In this document: positions 5,884 through 37,401 of the stretch, piece by piece
How the letters are laid out: every line of letters begins with the position of its first letter
Numbering within the stretch: the stretch's first letter is position 1
Sequence record: MN882542
Direction: 5' to 3' (one strand)
Length of the DNA stretch: 64,000 bases
Source: Escherichia phage JN01
The notes under the pieces: model-generated
The model's input: only the letters and a program-made list of their open reading frames with translations
What the model was told of the DNA's origin: nothing
The model's database searches: none
Made by a program: the position numbers and the translations under genes

Positions 5884-6765
5884 ATGAAAACATCTATCCG
5901 TGTTACAGTTCATTCACCAACTAAAGGGACTCATGAAGAAGAGTTTAACATCATCCAATTCCCTTCTGGTGAGATTGGTGGAAACTTTTCACCAGAGTTT
6001 GTTGATTTTACTGCTTATGCAGCATCATCTATCAACAATGTGATTATGATTGTAAAAGGTTATGATAAAGATACATTGTTTGCTGTGGCACTTGCTAAAG
6101 AGGCGGTGGACAACTTAGTACCTCATAAGTTTGCTATGAAGACCATTATCTTTTACTATTTGCCAAATGCACGTTATGACCGTCACATGTTTAAAGGTGA
6201 TGCAGCAGCTTTGAAAGTGTTTGCACAACAGGTTAATGCAATGGGTTTTGATGCAGTCTGTGCAGTTGACCCTCACAGCTATGTACCAGATAACCTGTTT
6301 AACTGCTTCCAGAGTATTCCTCAAAAGGAAATTGCAGTCCACTATGCAAATGACCCACTGGTTGATTACTTAGTAGCCCCAGATGCAGGTGCTTCTAAGA
6401 AGATTGCAGAGACTGCTAAAGAGGTGGATAAACCATACATCACAATGGCTAAGGTACGTGACCTTAAGACTGGTGAAATTACTGGTATGCGAATCCTTGA
6501 TGATGTTGATTTGACCGACAAAACTGTTATGATTCTCGACGATATCTGTGATGGTGGTCGAACCTTCATAGAAGCAGCTAAACATCTTCGTGAAGCAGGT
6601 GCAAAACGTGTGGAACTCTATGTAACACATGGTATCTTCTCTAAAGGCGTTGAAAACCTTCTTGACAATGGTATTGACCATATTTACACTACAAACTCTT
6701 TAGGGGAAGCTAAAGACCGTGGCTTAACACATTATGGTCAAGTTACTGTAGCAAACCTTGATTGA
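5884..6765 (+). CDS. prs: ribose-phosphate pyrophosphokinase (PRPP synthetase)-like protein; possibly ADP-ribose pyrophosphokinase of a NAD reconstitution pair
   Basis: PRTase-type motifs VAPDAGA and ILDDICDGGRTF, 293 aa; RBS GAGAGAGA before ATG. Confidence 0.75.
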   Translation: MKTSIRVTVHSPTKGTHEEEFNIIQFPSGEIGGNFSPEFVDFTAYAASSINNVIMIVKGYDKDTLFAVALAKEAVDNLVPHKFAMKTIIFYYLPNARYDRHMFKGDAAALKVFAQQVNAMGFDAVCAVDPHSYVPDNLFNCFQSIPQKEIAVHYANDPLVDYLVAPDAGASKKIAETAKEVDKPYITMAKVRDLKTGEITGMRILDDVDLTDKTVMILDDICDGGRTFIEAAKHLREAGAKRVELYVTHGIFSKGVENLLDNGIDHIYTTNSLGEAKDRGLTHYGQVTVANLD

Positions 6766-33573: not shown

Positions 33574-33653
33574 TTTTAAAAGGTGTTGACAGACTCTACA
33601 AAGTTGCTCTAAAGTCTGTCACATCAAACAACAATGAGAGAAGAGAGTAAAAT

Positions 33654-35069
33654 ATGAGCGAGTTATTTAAACATGCGCACCTTCATGCAGGTCGAACTGA
33701 AAATGGTGCTGTAAACCATACTTCATCAATGTCTGCTCTGGTAGACTTCTACAAATCCGCTGGCTCAAGCCGTAGCAATGTAGAAATCTTACCAGACCTG
33801 TTCTACAAAGCTTTGCGTGAGGATGTTGATGTTGCAGTTCGTATTTTACTGCATATGCGAGATGTACGAGAAGGTATGGGTGAGCGTAAAGCCTTCCGAA
33901 CTGTTTTATTTCAAGCGATTGAAGATAAAGTTTTAGAACCTACACAGGTTCTTCGCATTATGGATAAGATTGCAGAACTTGGTCGTTTTGATGACTTCAA
34001 AATCTTCGTAGGTACTCGTTTTGAGACAGATGCCTTCAAACATTTAGAAGCAGCATTACTAGACCCTGCAACAGCAGGTTTAGCAGCTAAGTGGTTACCA
34101 CGAGTAAAACCACGCCACAAACAGTTTGTAAAACGTTTCTGCAAGTTTGCAAACTTAAGTGAGAAGGAGTATCGCACACTGTTGTCTGCACTGTCTGATA
34201 CGGTTGAGCAAAAAATCTCTGCGAATGAGTTTGGCAAGATTGACTATAGTAAGATTCCTTCACTCGCTGCTGCACGTTACCAAAAGCTCTTTAACCGTAA
34301 AGATGGGGAACGTTACAAAGCTTACATCGAGTCACTCTCAAAAGGTGAGGCTAAGATTAACGCTGGTGCTGTTTACCCATACGATGTGATTAAATCTATC
34401 AAGTATGGTAATGCAGATGTAGCTAATGAGCAGTGGAAAGCACTACCAAACTGGATGGCAGAAGGTGAGAACATCTTGTGTATGACTGATGTTTCAAGCT
34501 CAATGTCTTGGGTGAATCTTGGTTCAATCACTGCCCTTGATATTGGTGTATCCCTTGCCTTGTATGTAGCAGAACGCAACACAGGTTGCTTTAAGAATGA
34601 GTTGATGGTTTATTCAACAAACCCTCATTTCATTGAACTGAGTGGTGATTTACAAAACCGTCATCGTCAAGTAATGCGTCATGTTGAATATGGTTCAACT
34701 AACTTACAAGCAGCTTTTGACCGTATTCTTGAAATAGGTAAGAGAAACAACTTGACTCAGAAAGATATGCCAAGTAAGCTTATTATCTTCTCTGATATGG
34801 AGTTTAATCAGGTTGATGGTGCAAATGGTCGTACAAACTTTGAAGCAATTCAGAGTAAGTACAAAAAAGCTGGATACGAAATGCCACAACTAGTATTCTG
34901 GTACTTAGCAAACCGTAATGGTACTTGCGAAGTATCTGTTAAGGATAATGGTGTAGCAATGGTATCAGGGTTCTCTCCAGCCACTTTAAAAGCTCTGCTT
35001 GGTGGTGAGAAGTTTGACCCAATCAGCGTAATGCTCAAAGCAGTAATGATTGACCGTTACATCTGGTAA
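33654..35069 (+). CDS. vWA-domain protein, candidate Ro60/Rsr-like (TROVE-vWA) RNA-binding protein
   Basis: 471 aa; C-terminal vWA with MIDAS DxSxS (LCMTDVSSSM) and downstream Thr/Asp positions; N-terminal 270 aa helical domain; sits just upstream of stem-closed Y-RNA-like elements. Confidence 0.5.
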   Translation: MSELFKHAHLHAGRTENGAVNHTSSMSALVDFYKSAGSSRSNVEILPDLFYKALREDVDVAVRILLHMRDVREGMGERKAFRTVLFQAIEDKVLEPTQVLRIMDKIAELGRFDDFKIFVGTRFETDAFKHLEAALLDPATAGLAAKWLPRVKPRHKQFVKRFCKFANLSEKEYRTLLSALSDTVEQKISANEFGKIDYSKIPSLAAARYQKLFNRKDGERYKAYIESLSKGEAKINAGAVYPYDVIKSIKYGNADVANEQWKALPNWMAEGENILCMTDVSSSMSWVNLGSITALDIGVSLALYVAERNTGCFKNELMVYSTNPHFIELSGDLQNRHRQVMRHVEYGSTNLQAAFDRILEIGKRNNLTQKDMPSKLIIFSDMEFNQVDGANGRTNFEAIQSKYKKAGYEMPQLVFWYLANRNGTCEVSVKDNGVAMVSGFSPATLKALLGGEKFDPISVMLKAVMIDRYIW

Positions 35070-35087
35070 AAAGTTTTAAAAAGGGTA

Positions 35088-35116
35088 TTGACAATGTGTT
35101 TGATACCCTTTAATAT
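35088..35116 (+). promoter_or_regulatory. candidate sigma70-type promoter for the tRNA cluster
   Basis: TTGACA, 17 bp spacer, TAATAT; second candidate TTGACA-18-TAAAGT at 35179..35208. Confidence 0.5.
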
Positions 35117-35234
35117 GTTCTACATAGAAACGAAATGAGAGCTTTTCTAAGATACTGAAAAATATTTTAAAAAAGTTCTTGACAACCACTAAAAAATAAT
35201 GTTAAAGTGGTTACATAGAGTTTGAAAAGTTTAT

Positions 35235-35308
35235 CTCTGTTTAGCTCAGCTTGGTAGAGCGTTCCGTTTGGGGCGGTAAGGCCGGAGGTTCAAGTCCTCC
35301 AACAGAGA
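35235..35308 (+). tRNA. tRNA-Pro(TGG)
   Basis: Hand-folded cloverleaf, anticodon loop TTTGGGG, T-arm GGAGGTTCAAGTCCTCC, CCA encoded. Confidence 0.7.
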
Positions 35309-35318
35309 CCAAATTAAT

Positions 35319-35392
35319 GTTCCAGTAGACAAAATGGTAAAGTCACCACTCTTTCAAAGTGGATATTTGAGGGTTCAAATCCCTTCTGGAAT
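35319..35392 (+). tRNA. tRNA-Glu(TTC)
   Basis: Acceptor GTTCCAG/CTGGAAT, anticodon stem-loop CCACT-CTTTCAA-AGTGG, T-loop TTCAAAT, CCA encoded. Confidence 0.7.
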
Positions 35393-35403
35393 GCCAGTTT
35401 TGA

Positions 35404-35476
35404 CAGAAGACCAATTACAGCAAGTTTAATCTTATTCATCTGACACGAAATCGGACAAAGAAGAGATTTGGTCTGG
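35404..35476 (+). ncRNA. stem-closed structured element A (Y-RNA-like candidate)
   Basis: 5' arm CAGAAGACCAA pairs with 3' arm TTGGTCTGG; conserved ACAGCAA box after 5' arm. Confidence 0.35.
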
Positions 35477-35487
35477 TCATTAAGAAT

Positions 35488-35561
35488 TGCGGGTATAGAG
35501 AAAGGGCGTCTCACATGTCTCATTAGCATGGTATCGGCAGGTTCGACTCCTGCACCCGCCT
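35488..35561 (+). tRNA. tRNA-Met or Ile2 (CAT), slightly atypical acceptor/D junction
   Basis: Anticodon stem-loop CATGT-CTCATTA-GCATG, T-arm GCAGGTTCGACTCCTGC, CCA encoded; 1-72 pair mismatched. Confidence 0.55.
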
Positions 35562-35570
35562 CCAATTTTG

Positions 35571-35630
35571 CAGAAGACCGTATTCAGCAACAAACTACTT
35601 TTTGCGGATAAAAGAAAAAACACGGTCTGG
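35571..35630 (+). ncRNA. stem-closed structured element B (Y-RNA-like candidate)
   Basis: 5' arm CAGAAGACCGT pairs with 3' arm ACGGTCTGG; the two bases beside GACC covary relative to element A (AA/TT vs GT/AC). Confidence 0.35.
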
Positions 35631-35641
35631 CAATGTATTAA

Positions 35642-35715
35642 GGTTAGGAAGCACATAAGGTATGTGCGGTCGCCTGTTAAGCGAATGGCACAGGGTTCGA
35701 ATCCCTGACTAACCG
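35642..35715 (+). tRNA. tRNA-Asn(GTT)
   Basis: Acceptor GGTTAGG/ACTAACC, anticodon loop CTGTTAA, T-arm CAGGGTTCGAATCCCTG, CCA encoded. Confidence 0.65.
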
Positions 35716-35727
35716 CCAAATTTAAAT

Positions 35728-35812
35728 GTGTCGTTATCCCGTAGATGGTAGCGGTGGGGACTGTAAATCCCTTGTCATTGAGACTCGGTAGGTTCGACTC
35801 CTACACGGCACA
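35728..35812 (+). tRNA. tRNA-Tyr(GTA), class II
   Basis: Anticodon stem-loop GGGGA-CTGTAAA-TCCCT, long variable arm, T-arm GTAGGTTCGACTCCTAC, CCA encoded. Confidence 0.7.
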
Positions 35813-35821
35813 CCAAATAAA

Positions 35822-35895
35822 GGTTATGTAGTTTAACTGGTTAAAATACTCCCCTGTCACGGGAGATGATGAGGGTTCAAATCCCTTCGTAACCG
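35822..35895 (+). tRNA. tRNA-Asp(GTC)
   Basis: Acceptor GGTTATG/CGTAACC, anticodon stem-loop CTCCC-CTGTCAC-GGGAG, T-loop TTCAAAT, CCA encoded. Confidence 0.7.
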
Positions 35896-35984
35896 CCAAA
35901 TTATAATAAGTATTTCAAAATGCTGTTTGAGAGGGCTATTTAGCCTCTCCCTTAAAGAGTTCTTACGAGTATTCTTTAAAGGAG

Positions 35985-36061
35985 CAGAAGACCAAATTCA
36001 GCAAGTACGTATGATATTTTCAAGCCAATTTAATTTTGAAAAAATTTAAAACTTGGTCTGG
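35985..36061 (+). ncRNA. stem-closed structured element C (Y-RNA-like candidate)
   Basis: 5' arm CAGAAGACCAA, ATTCAGCAA box, 3' arm TTGGTCTGG. Confidence 0.35.
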
Positions 36062-36074
36062 CTCAACAAATTTA

Positions 36075-36206
36075 CAGAAGACCGTTTACAGCAAAACTTA
36101 AACAATCTATTTCTCCGGTAAAGAAAAGGCGAAGGTTCGATTCCTTCACTCGGCAGGTGTCGAGTTGGTGTAATGGTAGCACTTAAGATGATAAACAACG
36201 GTCTGG
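36075..36206 (+). ncRNA. stem-closed element D with embedded tRNA-like module (YrlA-like Y RNA candidate)
   Basis: Arms CAGAAGACCGTT / AACGGTCTGG enclose hairpin TTTCT-CCGGTAA-AGAAA, T-arm GAAGGTTCGATTCCTTC, capped helix ACTCGGC-AGGT-GTCGAGT and D-arm GTGTAATGGTAGCAC. Confidence 0.45.
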
Positions 36207-36216
36207 TAATTATCTT

Positions 36217-36354
36217 TGTAGATAAGTTATTAAGCTTACCTGTGAGTATGCGACCACAAAGGGTGAAAGGGTAAATTCTAGATTTAAACCCAACAATGCA
36301 CATCGCTACAGACCTTAAGCAAGTCTGGGTAGCTTATCTACAAAGATAATTTAA
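36217..36354 (+). ncRNA. structured element E: 21 bp inverted repeat pair around a CAGACC...GGTCTG hairpin
   Basis: TTATCTTTGTAGATAA at 36221 and its reverse complement TTATCTACAAAGATAA at 36335; inner hairpin CAGACCTTAAGCAAGTCTGG. Confidence 0.3.
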
Positions 36355-36355
36355 T

Positions 36356-36428
36356 GGAAGTGTAGCAGAATGGTGATGCGGCAGACTTTTAATCTGACAG
36401 GCGATGGGTTCGAATCCCTCCACTTCTA
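36356..36428 (+). tRNA. tRNA-Lys(TTT)
   Basis: Acceptor GGAAGTG/CACTTCT, anticodon stem-loop CAGA-CTTTTAA-TCTG, T-loop TTCGAAT, CCA encoded; paralog of 38064..38135 with compensatory stem changes. Confidence 0.6.
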
Positions 36429-36604: not shown

Positions 36605-36633
36605 TTGACATTGAGATGTGACTACTTTATAGT
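36605..36633 (+). promoter_or_regulatory. candidate sigma70-type promoter inside tRNA cluster
   Basis: TTGACA, 17 bp spacer, TATAGT. Confidence 0.5.
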
Positions 36634-36956
36634 AACTGAAAATAATTCAGCATATGTATAATTCAAACACCAATACATGAGCGTTAGACGTAACACAATG
36701 TGGGGAAATTTGTTGTACATATTCTGAATAGTTTTCGTTGCGTAGCGTCTATTTTGCAAATTTAAAATAAATGCAAACGACAATGTTTTTCTGGCAGTAG
36801 CTTGATAGGCTAAACACCAGTGAGGTCTTCCAATCCCTCATCAAAGAATTTGGCGTACTCGCCCACGGTATGATTAATAAGGTGGGCAACATTCTAAAGG
36901 GTATCCCTTATGGGGCTTGGCTTAAATGCAATGAGTACCCTTTAAAATGTTAATTA

Positions 36957-37035
36957 CGGGGCGTATCTCAGCGGTCTTCTAAACCGCCGTTAACCGAGTA
37001 AGTGGAGTATGCGGGTTCGAGTCCTGCCGCCTCGA
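36957..37035 (+). tRNA. atypical tRNA-like gene, Arg(TCT)-type anticodon loop, no recognisable D-arm
   Basis: Acceptor CGGGGCG/CGCCTCG, anticodon stem-loop GCGGT-CTTCTAA-ACCGC, T-arm GCGGGTTCGAGTCCTGC, CCA encoded; only 7 nt between acceptor and anticodon stem, 23 nt variable region. Confidence 0.4.
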
Positions 37036-37053
37036 CCAATTTTGGATGAAATC

Positions 37054-37401
37054 ATGAAAACTTGTATTAGGTGCAAACTTAGCAAGGATGAAAGTGATTT
37101 CTACATGAAAGATGGTAGGAGAACTCATTCATACTGTAAAAAGTGTGTTAATGAGCAAACCATAGAAAGACAAAGAGCACTTAAACTTTCAGCTATTGAG
37201 TACAAAGGTGGAGTTTGTCATGATTGTGGTAAAAGGTATCATCCAGCAGTGTATGACTTCCATCATTTGAATCCTTCAGAGAAAGATTTTAACATTGGTC
37301 ATAGAAAAAGTCTTAAGTTCTCTCAGGAGCTAAAGGACGAACTTGACAAATGTGTTTTGCTATGTTCAAATTGCCATAGGGTAAGACATGCAAAGTATTA
37401 G
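37054..37401 (+). CDS. HNH endonuclease (homing-endonuclease-like) inside the tRNA cluster
   Basis: CxxC...CxxC zinc pairs with HNH core DFHHLNPSEKDFNIGH...CSNCHRVRH; ORF-track start 37009 falls in the tRNA-like T-arm, ATG at 37054 preferred. Confidence 0.75.
   Translation: MKTCIRCKLSKDESDFYMKDGRRTHSYCKKCVNEQTIERQRALKLSAIEYKGGVCHDCGKRYHPAVYDFHHLNPSEKDFNIGHRKSLKFSQELKDELDKCVLLCSNCHRVRHAKY

What the first reader, a model, noticed from the sequence alone, without database searches (positions are those of the whole stretch)
33654..36360. Candidate phage Ro60-like (vWA) protein with multiple Y-RNA-like elements embedded in the tRNA cluster
Seen in sequence: the 471 aa ORF at 33654..35069 has a C-terminal vWA MIDAS motif (DVSSSM). 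Within about 1 kb downstream, between tRNA genes, four elements (35404..35476, 35571..35630, 35985..36061, 36075..36206) share CAGAAGACC at the 5' end and GGTCTGG at the 3' end. The two bases beside GACC/GGTC covary (AA/TT or GT/AC), so the arms pair as a closing stem. Element D encloses a T-arm (GAAGGTTCGATTCCTTC), a capped 7 bp helix (ACTCGGC-AGGT-GTCGAGT) and a D-arm: tRNA-shaped, with the acceptor capped and the termini where the anticodon stem would be. Established knowledge: bacterial Y RNAs (YrlA) have this architecture and sit next to rsr, the Ro60 ortholog (TROVE plus vWA). Inference: this is a phage Rsr/Y-RNA module.
Basis: partly seen in the sequence, partly recalled or inferred. 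Interest (0 to 1): 0.85.

Follow-up and report, generated by a model that had tools for sequence, protein, structure and literature searches.

The report
Phage Ro60-like protein with Y-like RNAs
A Felix O1-type phage encodes a ring-shaped Ro60-like RNA-binding protein followed by four small RNA genes hidden between its tRNA genes, one shaped like a rearranged tRNA, and the same protein-plus-RNA pairing recurs in many unrelated phages.

Summary

- **Source:** the window is a Felixounavirus (Felix O1-like phage).
- **RNA elements:** the four elements A-D are real. Each has a covarying outer stem, an asymmetric internal loop, a 7-bp inner stem and a conserved single-stranded WCAGCAA motif.
- **Element D:** it carries V, T, capped-acceptor and D arms in the YrlA order. 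When de-permuted, ARAGORN calls it a cloverleaf tRNA.
- **Wider family:** the same stem-plus-CAGCAA design sits beside homologous genes, on the same strand, in Klebsiella, Vibrio, Campylobacter, Listeria and Enterococcus phages, in mycobacteriophages and in many metagenomic phages. There it often has its own promoter and terminator. In mycobacteriophages the tRNA-like copy weakly hits Rfam YrlA.
- **Database status:** no Rfam family matches the window copies.
- **Prior art:** a 2024 preprint noted that the orthologous Bas63 gp130 resembles Ro60 and counters the ppl defence. It only guessed that some annotated tRNAs might be Y RNAs.
- **Verdict:** a new variant of the Ro60/Y RNA kind. RNA binding and function are untested.

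The parts
33586..33615 (+). sigma-70-like promoter upstream of the Ro60-like gene (TTGACA, 18 nt spacer, TAAAGT)
   Evidence: consensus scan, 10 of 12 matches. This is a consensus match only.
33654..35069 (+). Gene for a 471-aa Ro60-fold protein: an N-terminal helical-repeat ring (Pfam DUF2828) and a C-terminal vWA domain (DUF7788) with the MIDAS residues D279, S281, S283, T349 and D381
35088..35208 (+). Two sigma-70-like promoters (35088-35116 and 35179-35208) ahead of tRNA-Pro. No + strand terminator follows before about 36600, so elements A-D and nine tRNAs appear to form one transcription unit.
   Evidence: tRNA coordinates. The single-unit reading is inferred, not shown.
35401..35479 (+). 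Element A, a short Y-like RNA: outer stem TGAC/GTCA, internal loop AGA versus G, inner stem AGACCAA/TTGGTCT, motif ACAGCAA at 35417-35423. It lies between tRNA-Glu and tRNA-Met.
   Evidence: Conserved in all Felix-like loci, L003-L016.
35568..35633 (+). Element B, a short Y-like RNA: outer stem TTGC/GCAA, inner stem AGACCGT/ACGGTCT, motif TCAGCAA at 35584-35590. It lies between tRNA-Met and tRNA-Asn.
   Evidence: Covariance model R1 gives E 0.0018 over the whole window.
35982..36064 (+). Element C, a short Y-like RNA: outer stem GAGC/GCTC, inner stem AGACCAA/TTGGTCT, motif TCAGCAA at 35998-36004.
   Evidence: Model R1 gives E 0.016.
36072..36209 (+). Element D, a YrlA-like RNA: outer stem TTAC/GTAA, inner stem AGACCGT/ACGGTCT, motif ACAGCAA at 36088-36094, and an enclosed tRNA-like domain.
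36110..36182 (+). tRNA-like domain of element D in permuted order: V or anticodon-like hairpin 36110-36126, T arm 36131-36147 (loop TTCGATT), capped acceptor-like helix 36148-36165, D arm 36168-36182 (loop AATGGTA).
   Evidence: MFE fold. Partial Rfam tRNA hit at 36098-36148, 22 bits. Three compensatory pairs in the acceptor-like helix among 10 orthologs. The de-permuted sequence is called by ARAGORN as a 74-nt cloverleaf.

Best explanation
The 471-aa ORF encodes a highly diverged Ro60-type protein: a helical-repeat ring plus a vWA/MIDAS domain. Pfam files it as DUF2828 + DUF7788.

Elements A-D are its cognate Y-like noncoding RNAs. They are transcribed together with the first nine tRNAs from the promoters at 35088-35208. 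They are then released by the tRNA-processing nucleases that cut the flanking tRNAs (inferred).

Each RNA presents the same protein-binding module. This is a terminal helix with an asymmetric internal loop, a conserved G-C pair near its base with a 3' G after it, and the single-stranded motif U-WCAGCAA at the top of the 5' strand. By analogy with Ro60 and Y RNA, the ring protein binds this module (inferred).

The interior of the RNA is cargo. In A-C it is a short A/U-rich loop. In D it is a tRNA-shaped domain with the acceptor capped and the entry at the anticodon-stem side, as in YrlA.

By analogy with Rsr-Y RNA-PNPase and with phage phiLo Ro60-Yrl-PNPase, the RNAs would gate the ring or tether it to tRNA-recognising or RNA-degrading host enzymes. 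That would bias RNA surveillance, repair or decay in the infected cell towards the phage. This is consistent with the orthologous Bas63 gp130 acting as a counter-defence factor against ppl.

Shown here: the protein fold, the RNA architecture, covariation, and the linkage of gene and RNA. Inferred only: binding, processing and the downstream effect.
For: **Protein**
- The Foldseek top 11 hits are all Ro60 or TROVE, with TM 0.68.
- The MIDAS residues are invariant.
- 11 of 62 homologs weakly hit Pfam vWA_Ro60.
- Homologs at 34% identity in mycobacteriophages are annotated 'Ro-like RNA binding protein'.

**RNA in the window**
- Four paralogous elements carry a covarying outer stem and covarying inner-stem bases.
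- Element D's acceptor-like helix keeps pairing through three fully compensatory variants.
- De-permuted D is called as a cloverleaf tRNA.

**Linkage across phages**
- 135 of 456 same-strand NCAGCAA sites have the paired arm. Offset controls give 5-15, and the opposite strand gives 0 of 376.
- 61 of 83 sources (80 IMG/VR loci, two fetched phage loci and the window) have at least one element by the strict rule. Under the relaxed rule, with the two mycobacteriophage loci added, 71 of 85 do.
- 51 of 68 elements in non-Felix loci lie within 600 nt of the gene.
- There are 52 distinct stem sequences.
- The same design occurs in Klebsiella phage FBKp34, mycobacteriophages Krypton555 and Enceladus, and Listeria, Campylobacter and Enterococcus phages.

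**Evidence that they are RNA genes**
- Many copies are standalone units, with a -10 box upstream and an intrinsic terminator after the 3' arm.
- They occur with or without nearby tRNAs.

**Bridge to YrlA**
- The tRNA-like copies in the two mycobacteriophages hit Rfam YrlA at E 6e-6 and 1.8e-5.

**Context and function**
- An RtcB ligase gene lies next to the Listeria phage homolog, echoing the bacterial rsr-yrlBA-rtcBA operon.
- Bas63 gp130 is Ro60-like, lies upstream of the tRNAs and counters ppl.
- phiLo Ro60 binds Yrl RNAs and host PNPase.
Against: - There is no expression, processing or binding data for A-D.
- Sequence methods do not link the protein to TROVE.
- The window RNAs do not hit Rfam Y_RNA or YrlA even at E<=10. 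They lack the YrlA motif GNCGAAN0-1G.
- Folding energies of A, C and D are not unusual against shuffles, with z of -0.7 to -1.4. Support therefore comes from covariation, not thermodynamics.
- Bas63 gp130 alone, expressed from a plasmid or from T7, restores plaquing on ppl. The phage RNAs are therefore not needed for that activity, or host RNAs can substitute.
- In some phages the only copy sits in the 5' UTR of the gene and covers the start codon (L018). That fits an autoregulatory operator as well as a Y RNA.
- The set of 52 stems was selected for pairing, so one search is circular. One search is the fair test.
Confidence: 0.75

Rival explanations
1. The elements do bind the protein, but they act mainly as regulatory operators or sponges rather than as Y-RNA-type adaptors. 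They would autoregulate translation of the protein's mRNA, or titrate the protein.
For: In several phages a minimal copy of 36-57 nt lies directly before the ribosome-binding site of the gene (L024, L038, L076, L020, L077). In KVP40-like L018/L019 the 3' arm AATGTC includes the ATG. gp130 works without the phage RNAs against ppl.
Against: The window has no copy in the 5' UTR of the gene. Its four copies lie downstream, in the tRNA operon. Many copies elsewhere are standalone promoter-terminator units. The conserved tRNA-like cargo of D has no role in an operator model.
Confidence: 0.12
2. The elements are processing or spacer signals of the tRNA operon, such as nuclease entry sites or folding insulators, and have no link to the upstream protein.
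For: All four lie in tRNA spacers, with no promoter or terminator of their own. Elements interleaved with tRNAs also occur in L021 and L070.
Against: The same design occurs next to homologous genes in loci with no tRNA within 5 kb: 36 of 60 loci lack tRNAs, and most of those have elements. Elements cluster within 600 nt of the gene. They are often independent transcription units. The WCAGCAA motif is conserved down to about 30% protein identity.
Confidence: 0.06
3. The elements are independent small RNAs or tRNA decoys that act without the Ro60-like protein. An example would be bait for host anticodon nucleases. On this view they share only a regulatory neighbourhood with the gene.
For: tRNA-shaped cargo appears in several topologies. 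The elements are embedded in a 25-tRNA cluster. Phage tRNA clusters are known to offset tRNA-targeting defences (my own knowledge).
Against: Only some copies carry tRNA-like cargo. The invariant part is the stem plus CAGCAA, which is not tRNA-like. Linkage to the gene holds across phage families whose other neighbouring genes differ.
Confidence: 0.05
4. The repeats act at the DNA level, as miniature mobile elements, recombination sites or homing sites that have spread in the tRNA cluster.
For: Imperfect inverted termini and multiple copies within 800 bp. A putative homing-endonuclease-like ORF lies nearby at 37009-37401.
Against: Orientation is strictly strand-specific relative to the gene, with 0 of 376 on the other strand. 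Arms differ in sequence but keep pairing, including G-U pairs, which only matter in RNA. Positions are conserved among orthologous genomes.
Confidence: 0.02

Closest known systems
Salmonella Typhimurium Rsr with YrlA/YrlB (rsr-yrlBA-rtcBA operon) and the YrlA family of Chen et al. 2014 (PMC4201824; Rfam RF02553)
   Same: A Ro60-fold protein with several Y-like RNAs encoded close by on the same strand. One RNA has a tRNA-like domain in the order V, T, capped acceptor stem, D, entered through the anticodon-stem side. A terminal helix is formed by the 5' and 3' ends, with a conserved single-stranded motif on the 5' strand. A shorter partner RNA lacks the tRNA-like part, like YrlB. An RtcB gene lies next to the Listeria phage homolog.
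   Different: The protein has no TROVE sequence signature (DUF2828/DUF7788). The motif is WCAGCAA rather than GNCGAAN0-1G. There is no Rfam YrlA hit for the window copies. There are four copies, embedded between tRNA genes and probably released by tRNA processing. The setting is a lytic phage rather than a sigma-54 stress operon.
Thermus phage phiLo Ro60 with Yrl1/Yrl2 (NAR 2025, PMC12135203; PDB 9KOP, 9L5Y)
   Different: The phiLo protein is recognisable as TROVE. Its Yrl RNAs carry the CGAA motif and lie upstream of the gene. No tRNA-like domain or tRNA-cluster embedding is reported.
Bas63 gp130 (Felixounavirus; PhageMaP preprint 10.1101/2024.10.10.617714)
   Same: By the paper's description it is almost certainly the ortholog. 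It is a Felixounavirus gene directly upstream of the tRNA genes, with structural similarity to Ro60, and it is shown experimentally to counter the ppl defence system.
   Different: The preprint did not locate any Y RNA. It suggested that some annotated tRNA genes might be Y RNAs. Here the candidates lie in the unannotated spacers. I could not confirm orthology by sequence, because the Bas63 record was not retrieved.
Deinococcus radiodurans Rsr-Yrn1-PNPase (RYPER)
   Same: A Ro60 ring with a Y RNA that has a protein-binding stem and an effector-binding module containing a T-arm-like loop. It serves as the model for how a Y RNA tethers the ring to an exoribonuclease.
   Different: The Yrn1 modules are arranged differently. 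No PNPase link has been tested for the window system.
Phage T4 species 1 and species 2 stable RNAs (RNA C and RNA D) in the tRNA gene cluster (from my own knowledge, not checked here)
   Same: Small stable RNAs of unknown function, encoded among phage tRNA genes and matured with them.
   Different: No known Ro60-like partner. No sequence comparison was made here.

Membership tests
Ro60 / Rsr (TROVE + vWA) | TROVE domain detectable by sequence profile (Pfam PF05731) | tested here: not met
   No TROVE hit at E<=1 for the window protein or for any of 62 homologs. phmmer and a family profile against PDB sequences find no Ro60.
Ro60 / Rsr (TROVE + vWA) | Ro60 fold: helical-repeat ring closed by a vWA domain | tested here: met
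Ro60 / Rsr (TROVE + vWA) | vWA domain with MIDAS motif (DxSxS ... T ... D) | tested here: met
   D279, S281, S283, T349 and D381 are invariant in 62 homologs. VWA_2 hit at E 1.6e-4. 11 of 62 homologs hit vWA_Ro60 PF25045.
Ro60 / Rsr (TROVE + vWA) | Binds Y RNA through a conserved helix on the outer ring surface | not testable with these tools
   Needs EMSA, RIP or a complex structure.
YrlA-type bacterial/phage Y RNA (Rfam RF02553) | Reaches the Rfam YrlA gathering score (69 bits) | tested here: not met
   No YrlA hit at E<=10 in the window. Equivalent RNAs next to homologous genes in two mycobacteriophages score 39.8 and 38.3 bits, E 6e-6 and 1.8e-5, below gathering.
YrlA-type bacterial/phage Y RNA (Rfam RF02553) | tRNA-like domain with T arm, capped acceptor-like stem and D arm in that order, optional V stem-loop before T | tested here: met
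   Element D at 36110-36182. Compensatory changes in the acceptor-like helix. The de-permuted sequence is called as a cloverleaf by ARAGORN.
YrlA-type bacterial/phage Y RNA (Rfam RF02553) | GNCGAAN0-1G motif near the 5' end (Chen et al. 2014) | tested here: not met
   All four elements carry (U)WCAGCAA at the equivalent place instead.
YrlA-type bacterial/phage Y RNA (Rfam RF02553) | Encoded within about 4 kb of the Ro60 ortholog on the same strand | tested here: met
   A-D start 332-1003 nt after the stop codon, on the same strand. The same linkage holds in other phages.
YrlA-type bacterial/phage Y RNA (Rfam RF02553) | Terminal helix formed by the 5' and 3' ends | tested here: met
   Inner and outer stems covary between paralogs and across 52 distinct stems. 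The unbiased control is.
YrlA-type bacterial/phage Y RNA (Rfam RF02553) | Carries tRNA modifications and is recognised by tRNA enzymes (TruB, DusA, RNase P) | not testable with these tools
   Experimental feature.
Pfam DUF2828 + DUF7788 / PHROG 850 'RNA-binding protein' | Passes the family profiles | tested here: met
   DUF7788 at 148.8 bits and DUF2828 at 102.8 bits, both above cut-off. PHROG 850 at E 1e-182, full length.
tRNA genes | Standard cloverleaf detectable by ARAGORN or the Rfam tRNA model | tested here: not met
   None of A-D is called by ARAGORN. Only a partial 22-bit tRNA hit lies inside D. Native D is not called.

The most novel reading that the evidence does not exclude
DUF2828-type Ro60-like proteins and stem-plus-WCAGCAA RNAs form a previously unrecognised, very widespread phage ribonucleoprotein class. 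Homologs are in 709 of 50,697 phage records, across Gram-negative, Gram-positive and actinobacterial hosts.

Its RNA partners are modular. One conserved protein-binding handle carries interchangeable cargo:
- nothing at all;
- a circularly permuted tRNA;
- a normal-order tRNA body (L072 7329-7428);
- or the handle is itself inserted into a real tRNA (Klebsiella phage FBKp34, L002 6003-6116).

The RNP would present tRNA shapes to host enzymes or immune nucleases as a general counter-defence device. The minimal 5' UTR copies would provide autoregulation.
Probability: 0.35. Interest if true: 0.8.

Novelty: new variant of a known kind. Interest (0 to 1): 0.65.

Why it matters
Ro60/Y RNA particles are known from animals, from about 5% of bacteria and from a few phages. 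Their RNA partners are hard to find, and their functions in bacteria and phages are still sketchy.

This work gives concrete, coordinate-level candidates for the RNA partners of a protein already shown genetically to defeat a bacterial defence system (Bas63 gp130 against ppl). That question becomes directly testable by RIP-seq, EMSA and deletion of A-D.

It also suggests that the DUF2828 family, which sequence searches do not connect to Ro60, is a large hidden branch of Ro60-like proteins with its own RNA recognition motif. That would extend Y RNA biology to hundreds of phages, including well-used ones such as Felix O1, Listeria P100/A511-like phages and KVP40-like phages.

Finally, it points to tRNA mimicry as a recurring phage strategy.

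Tried and rejected
- **Rfam scans.** Scans of the region at E<=10 found no Y_RNA or YrlA hit, so the window RNAs cannot be filed in an existing Rfam family.
- **Sequence searches against PDB.** Searching with the single protein and with a 62-sequence profile found no Ro60. Only fold comparison worked.
- **NCBIfam.** Nothing useful.
- **Covariance model R1.** The 37-position model of the handle found only B and C with default filters. With filters off it lost all four among noise, because the loops are far longer than the model allows. I relied on an explicit arm-pairing scan with offset controls instead.
- **First pairing scan.** It allowed any number of G-U pairs and had too high a background: 300 hits against 176-231 in controls. 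It was replaced by the stricter scan.
- **First de-permutation of D.** It kept the long V region as a variable arm, and ARAGORN did not call it. The second version, with V as the anticodon arm, was called. The Klebsiella and mycobacteriophage de-permutations used a synthetic anticodon loop, so they carry little weight.
- **Folding energies.** For A, C and D they are not distinguishable from shuffles, so thermodynamic stability is not used as evidence.
- **Bas63 record.** A guessed accession returned a different phage, so orthology with gp130 rests on the paper's description.
- **Papers not available.** The Annual Review on bacterial Ro60 (PMC10870794) is not held. The supplementary tables of Chen et al. 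2014 are not held either. I therefore cannot say which 22 phages they covered.

Full report
**What the window is.** The region is 95-98% identical to many Felix O1-like myoviruses (Felixounavirus), with 306 matching phage records. ARAGORN finds 25 tRNA genes between 35235 and 40890, all on the + strand. The finding covers the gene just upstream of this cluster and the first spacers within it.

**Checking the observation.**
- The ORF 33654..35069 (471 aa) and its DVSSSM motif are present.
- CAGAAGACC occurs exactly at 35404, 35571, 35985 and 36075, and GGTCTGG at 35470, 35624, 36055 and 36200.
- An alignment of the four elements shows a longer shared 5' block, CAGAAGACC-NN-WT-WCAGCAA.
- Reading the flanks shows a further 4-bp outer stem in each element. 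It differs between paralogs but always pairs: TGAC/GTCA, TTGC/GCAA, GAGC/GCTC and TTAC/GTAA.
- This outer stem is separated from the inner stem AGACCNN/NNGGTCT by an asymmetric internal loop, 5' AGA against 3' G.
- The elements therefore span 35401-35479, 35568-35633, 35982-36064 and 36072-36209.
- Element D folds with the closing helix around four hairpins: V at 36110-36126, T arm at 36131-36147, capped acceptor-like helix at 36148-36165 and D arm at 36168-36182.

**The protein.**
- Sequence methods do not connect it to Ro60. Pfam gives DUF2828 and DUF7788, plus a sub-threshold VWA_2 hit and no TROVE hit.
- None of 62 homologs hits TROVE, though 11 weakly hit the Ro60-specific vWA model.
- phmmer and a family profile against PDB sequences find nothing relevant.
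- PHROGs places it in family 850, 'RNA-binding protein'.
- An AlphaFold2 model built on 62 homologs is confident, with pLDDT 90 and pTM 0.89.
- Foldseek against the PDB returns Ro60 structures as the top 11 hits, with TM 0.68 to Xenopus Ro60.
- The MIDAS residues D279, S281, S283, T349 and D381 are invariant.

I conclude that the protein is a Ro60-fold ring plus vWA domain, diverged beyond sequence recognition.

**Homologs elsewhere.** Homologs occur in 709 of 50,697 phage records. They include Vibrio, Aeromonas, Campylobacter, Listeria, Staphylococcus, Enterococcus and Bacillus phages. They also include mycobacteriophages, where the gene is annotated 'Ro-like RNA binding protein'.

**The RNAs travel with the gene.**
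- In Klebsiella phage FBKp34 (52% protein identity) the gene is again followed by elements of the same design. One of them has a T arm, a capped acceptor and a D arm.
- I fetched 80 metagenomic phage loci encoding homologs. In these I scanned for NCAGCAA preceded, 2 nt upstream, by a 7-nt arm whose Watson-Crick complement (at most one G-U) plus a G lies within 170 nt.
- On the gene's strand 135 of 456 motif sites qualify. Control arms taken 8-24 nt further upstream give 5-15. On the opposite strand 0 of 376 qualify.
- 61 of 83 sources (the 80 loci, two fetched phage loci and the window) have at least one element by this rigid rule. With slightly relaxed geometry, and the two mycobacteriophage loci added, 71 of 85 do.
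- In non-Felix loci, 51 of 68 elements lie within 600 nt of the gene.
- The stems differ, with 52 distinct sequences, while CAGCAA, a G-C pair near the base of the stem and the trailing G stay fixed. One search is circular, because the set was selected for pairing. One search is the fair control.

**Evidence that they are RNA genes.** Many copies have a -10 box about 7 nt upstream and an intrinsic terminator straight after the 3' arm, so they are stand-alone small-RNA genes. Elements occur whether or not tRNAs are nearby: 36 of 60 loci have no tRNA within 5 kb. In L021 and L070 they are interleaved with tRNAs, as in the window.

**Other phage groups.** The same design is found upstream of the gene in Listeria phage List-36 (three copies, with an RtcB ligase gene nearby), Campylobacter phage CP30A (two copies) and Enterococcus phage Porthos (three copies, two of them tRNA-like).

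**Bridge to YrlA.** Mycobacteriophages Krypton555 and Enceladus carry three elements after their 'Ro-like' gene, all with stem plus ACAGCAA. In each phage the middle, tRNA-like element hits Rfam YrlA at E 1.8e-5 and 6e-6, at 38-40 bits against a gathering score of 69. The window's D gets no YrlA hit even at E<=10. The elements also lack the YrlA motif GNCGAAN0-1G defined by Chen et al. 2014.

**tRNA-likeness of D.** Among ten distinct D orthologs, 96% of cells pair. The acceptor-like helix exists in three fully compensatory versions: ACTCGGC/GTCGAGT, ACACG/CGTGT and ACCCTTC/GAAGGGT. I opened the cap of that helix and joined the D arm to the V hairpin, using native segments only plus an appended ACCA tail. 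ARAGORN calls the result a 74-nt cloverleaf. Native D is not called.

**Other cargo topologies.** Elsewhere the tRNA-like cargo takes other forms. L072 7329-7428 has the D, anticodon and T arms in normal order inside the same handle. Klebsiella phage FBKp34 has a 114-nt tRNA-Asp-like gene with the handle hairpin plus UUACAGCA inserted between the D arm and the anticodon stem.

**Expression context in the window.** Consensus promoters lie at 33586-33615 (before the gene), at 35088-35116 and 35179-35208 (before tRNA-Pro) and at 36605-36633. No + strand terminator is predicted between 35210 and 36600. I infer that A-D are co-transcribed with nine tRNAs and are freed when RNase P and the 3' processing enzymes cut the neighbouring tRNAs. 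This is not shown.

**Mechanism.** The best-supported reading is a Ro60/Y RNA-type particle. The protein would bind the helix-plus-WCAGCAA handle. The RNA body would then gate the ring or tether it to other factors, with D offering a tRNA shape.

The analogies are:
- Rsr-Yrn1-PNPase;
- Salmonella Rsr-YrlA in the rsr-yrlBA-rtcBA operon;
- phiLo Ro60-Yrl-PNPase.

A functional lead comes from a 2024 preprint on the Felixounavirus Bas63. Its gp130 lies directly upstream of the tRNA genes and resembles Ro60. Deleting it sensitises the phage to the ppl defence system, and gp130 alone rescues T7 on ppl. That last result means the phage RNAs are not required for that activity. It weakens any claim that A-D are essential cofactors.

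Minimal copies in the 5' UTR of the gene in other phages, covering the start codon in KVP40-like L018, suggest autoregulation as an additional or alternative role.

**Novelty.**
- Phage Ro60 homologs with Y-like RNAs are known from Chen et al. 2014 (22 phages, in genomes with annotated TROVE proteins) and from phiLo in 2025.
- The Ro60-like nature of the Felixounavirus protein was noted in 2024. That preprint only speculated that some annotated tRNA genes might be Y RNAs.
- The Felix O1 GenBank record annotates the gene as unknown, with no RNA in these spacers.
- Full-text searches found no description of these RNAs or of a DUF2828-RNA link.

I rate this as a new variant of a known kind. It has a distinct recognition motif, a multi-copy arrangement inside a tRNA operon, and a protein branch invisible to TROVE profiles.

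**Scores.** Confidence that this is a Ro60-like protein with cognate Y-like RNAs is 0.75. Confidence in the downstream function is much lower. Interest is 0.65.

Noticed in passing
window 36207-36355: A 150-nt segment between element D and tRNA-Lys folds into a 24-bp closing stem around a multiloop: -46.9 kcal/mol, z -6.5 against shuffles. In Mooglevirus relatives (L001, L014, L015) the long stem and an inner hairpin (CAGAC/GTCTG versus CAAACC/GGTTTG, loop CUUWAGCAA) change in a compensatory way. There is no Rfam hit and no CAGCAA handle. It may be a fifth, different structured RNA of the same operon.
   Followed up: partly
window 36638-36825: Downstream of a strong consensus promoter (36605-36633) lies GCAAACGACAATGTTTTTCTGGCAGTAGCTTGA, which reads ANDNVFLAVA-stop and resembles a tmRNA tag ORF. 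Rfam gives weak hits to tmRNA_permuted (23.6 bits, E 0.0065 in a 491-nt search) and to tmRNA (11.9 bits). ARAGORN calls no tmRNA. The segment is also conserved in Sf14 (L001, about 6080-6130).
   Followed up: partly
window 36957-37035 and 37009-37401: An Rfam tRNA hit (31.7 bits) that ARAGORN does not call. It has almost no D arm, a 20-nt variable region, a UCU anticodon and a G3:U70 pair. It overlaps the start of a 130-aa ORF with CxxC/HNH-like motifs. Sf14 has an ordinary tRNA-Arg(TCT) at the equivalent place (L001 6242-6318).
   Followed up: no
L002 6003-6116 (Klebsiella phage vB_KpM_FBKp34): A 114-nt gene annotated tRNA-Asp that ARAGORN does not call. It carries a 38-nt insertion between the D arm and the anticodon stem. 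The insertion is a hairpin AACTTC-TTAGA-GAAGTT followed by TTACAGCAT, which is the Y-RNA handle closed by a loop inside an otherwise normal tRNA.
   Followed up: partly
L018 4964-5007 (KVP40-like Vibrio phage) and L024, L038, L076, L020: A single minimal stem-plus-ACAGCAA element lies in the 5' UTR of the homologous gene. In L018 the Shine-Dalgarno sequence is in the loop and the 3' arm AATGTC contains the start codon. This suggests translational autoregulation.
   Followed up: partly
L085 5310-6455 (Listeria phage List-36): An RtcB-type 'tRNA splicing ligase' gene and a metal-dependent phosphohydrolase gene lie 0.6-1.3 kb downstream of the Ro60-like gene. This echoes the bacterial rsr-yrlBA-rtcBA RNA repair operon.
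   Followed up: no
L087 1790-2230 (Enterococcus phage Porthos): Each of the three Y-like elements is preceded by a second conserved hairpin, GGTTTTGACATATGTCATAGTTCCAACCT...GCCGGAACATAA. It is repeated three times and its role is unknown.
   Followed up: no
window 35314-35565, 35480-35719 and 36046-36303 (- strand ORFs): Mechanical ORFs of 79-85 aa run antisense across tRNAs and across elements A-D. The Felix O1 GenBank record annotates such ORFs (ORF91, ORF92, ORF94) as CDS. These are probably annotation artefacts that mask the RNA genes.
   Followed up: partly
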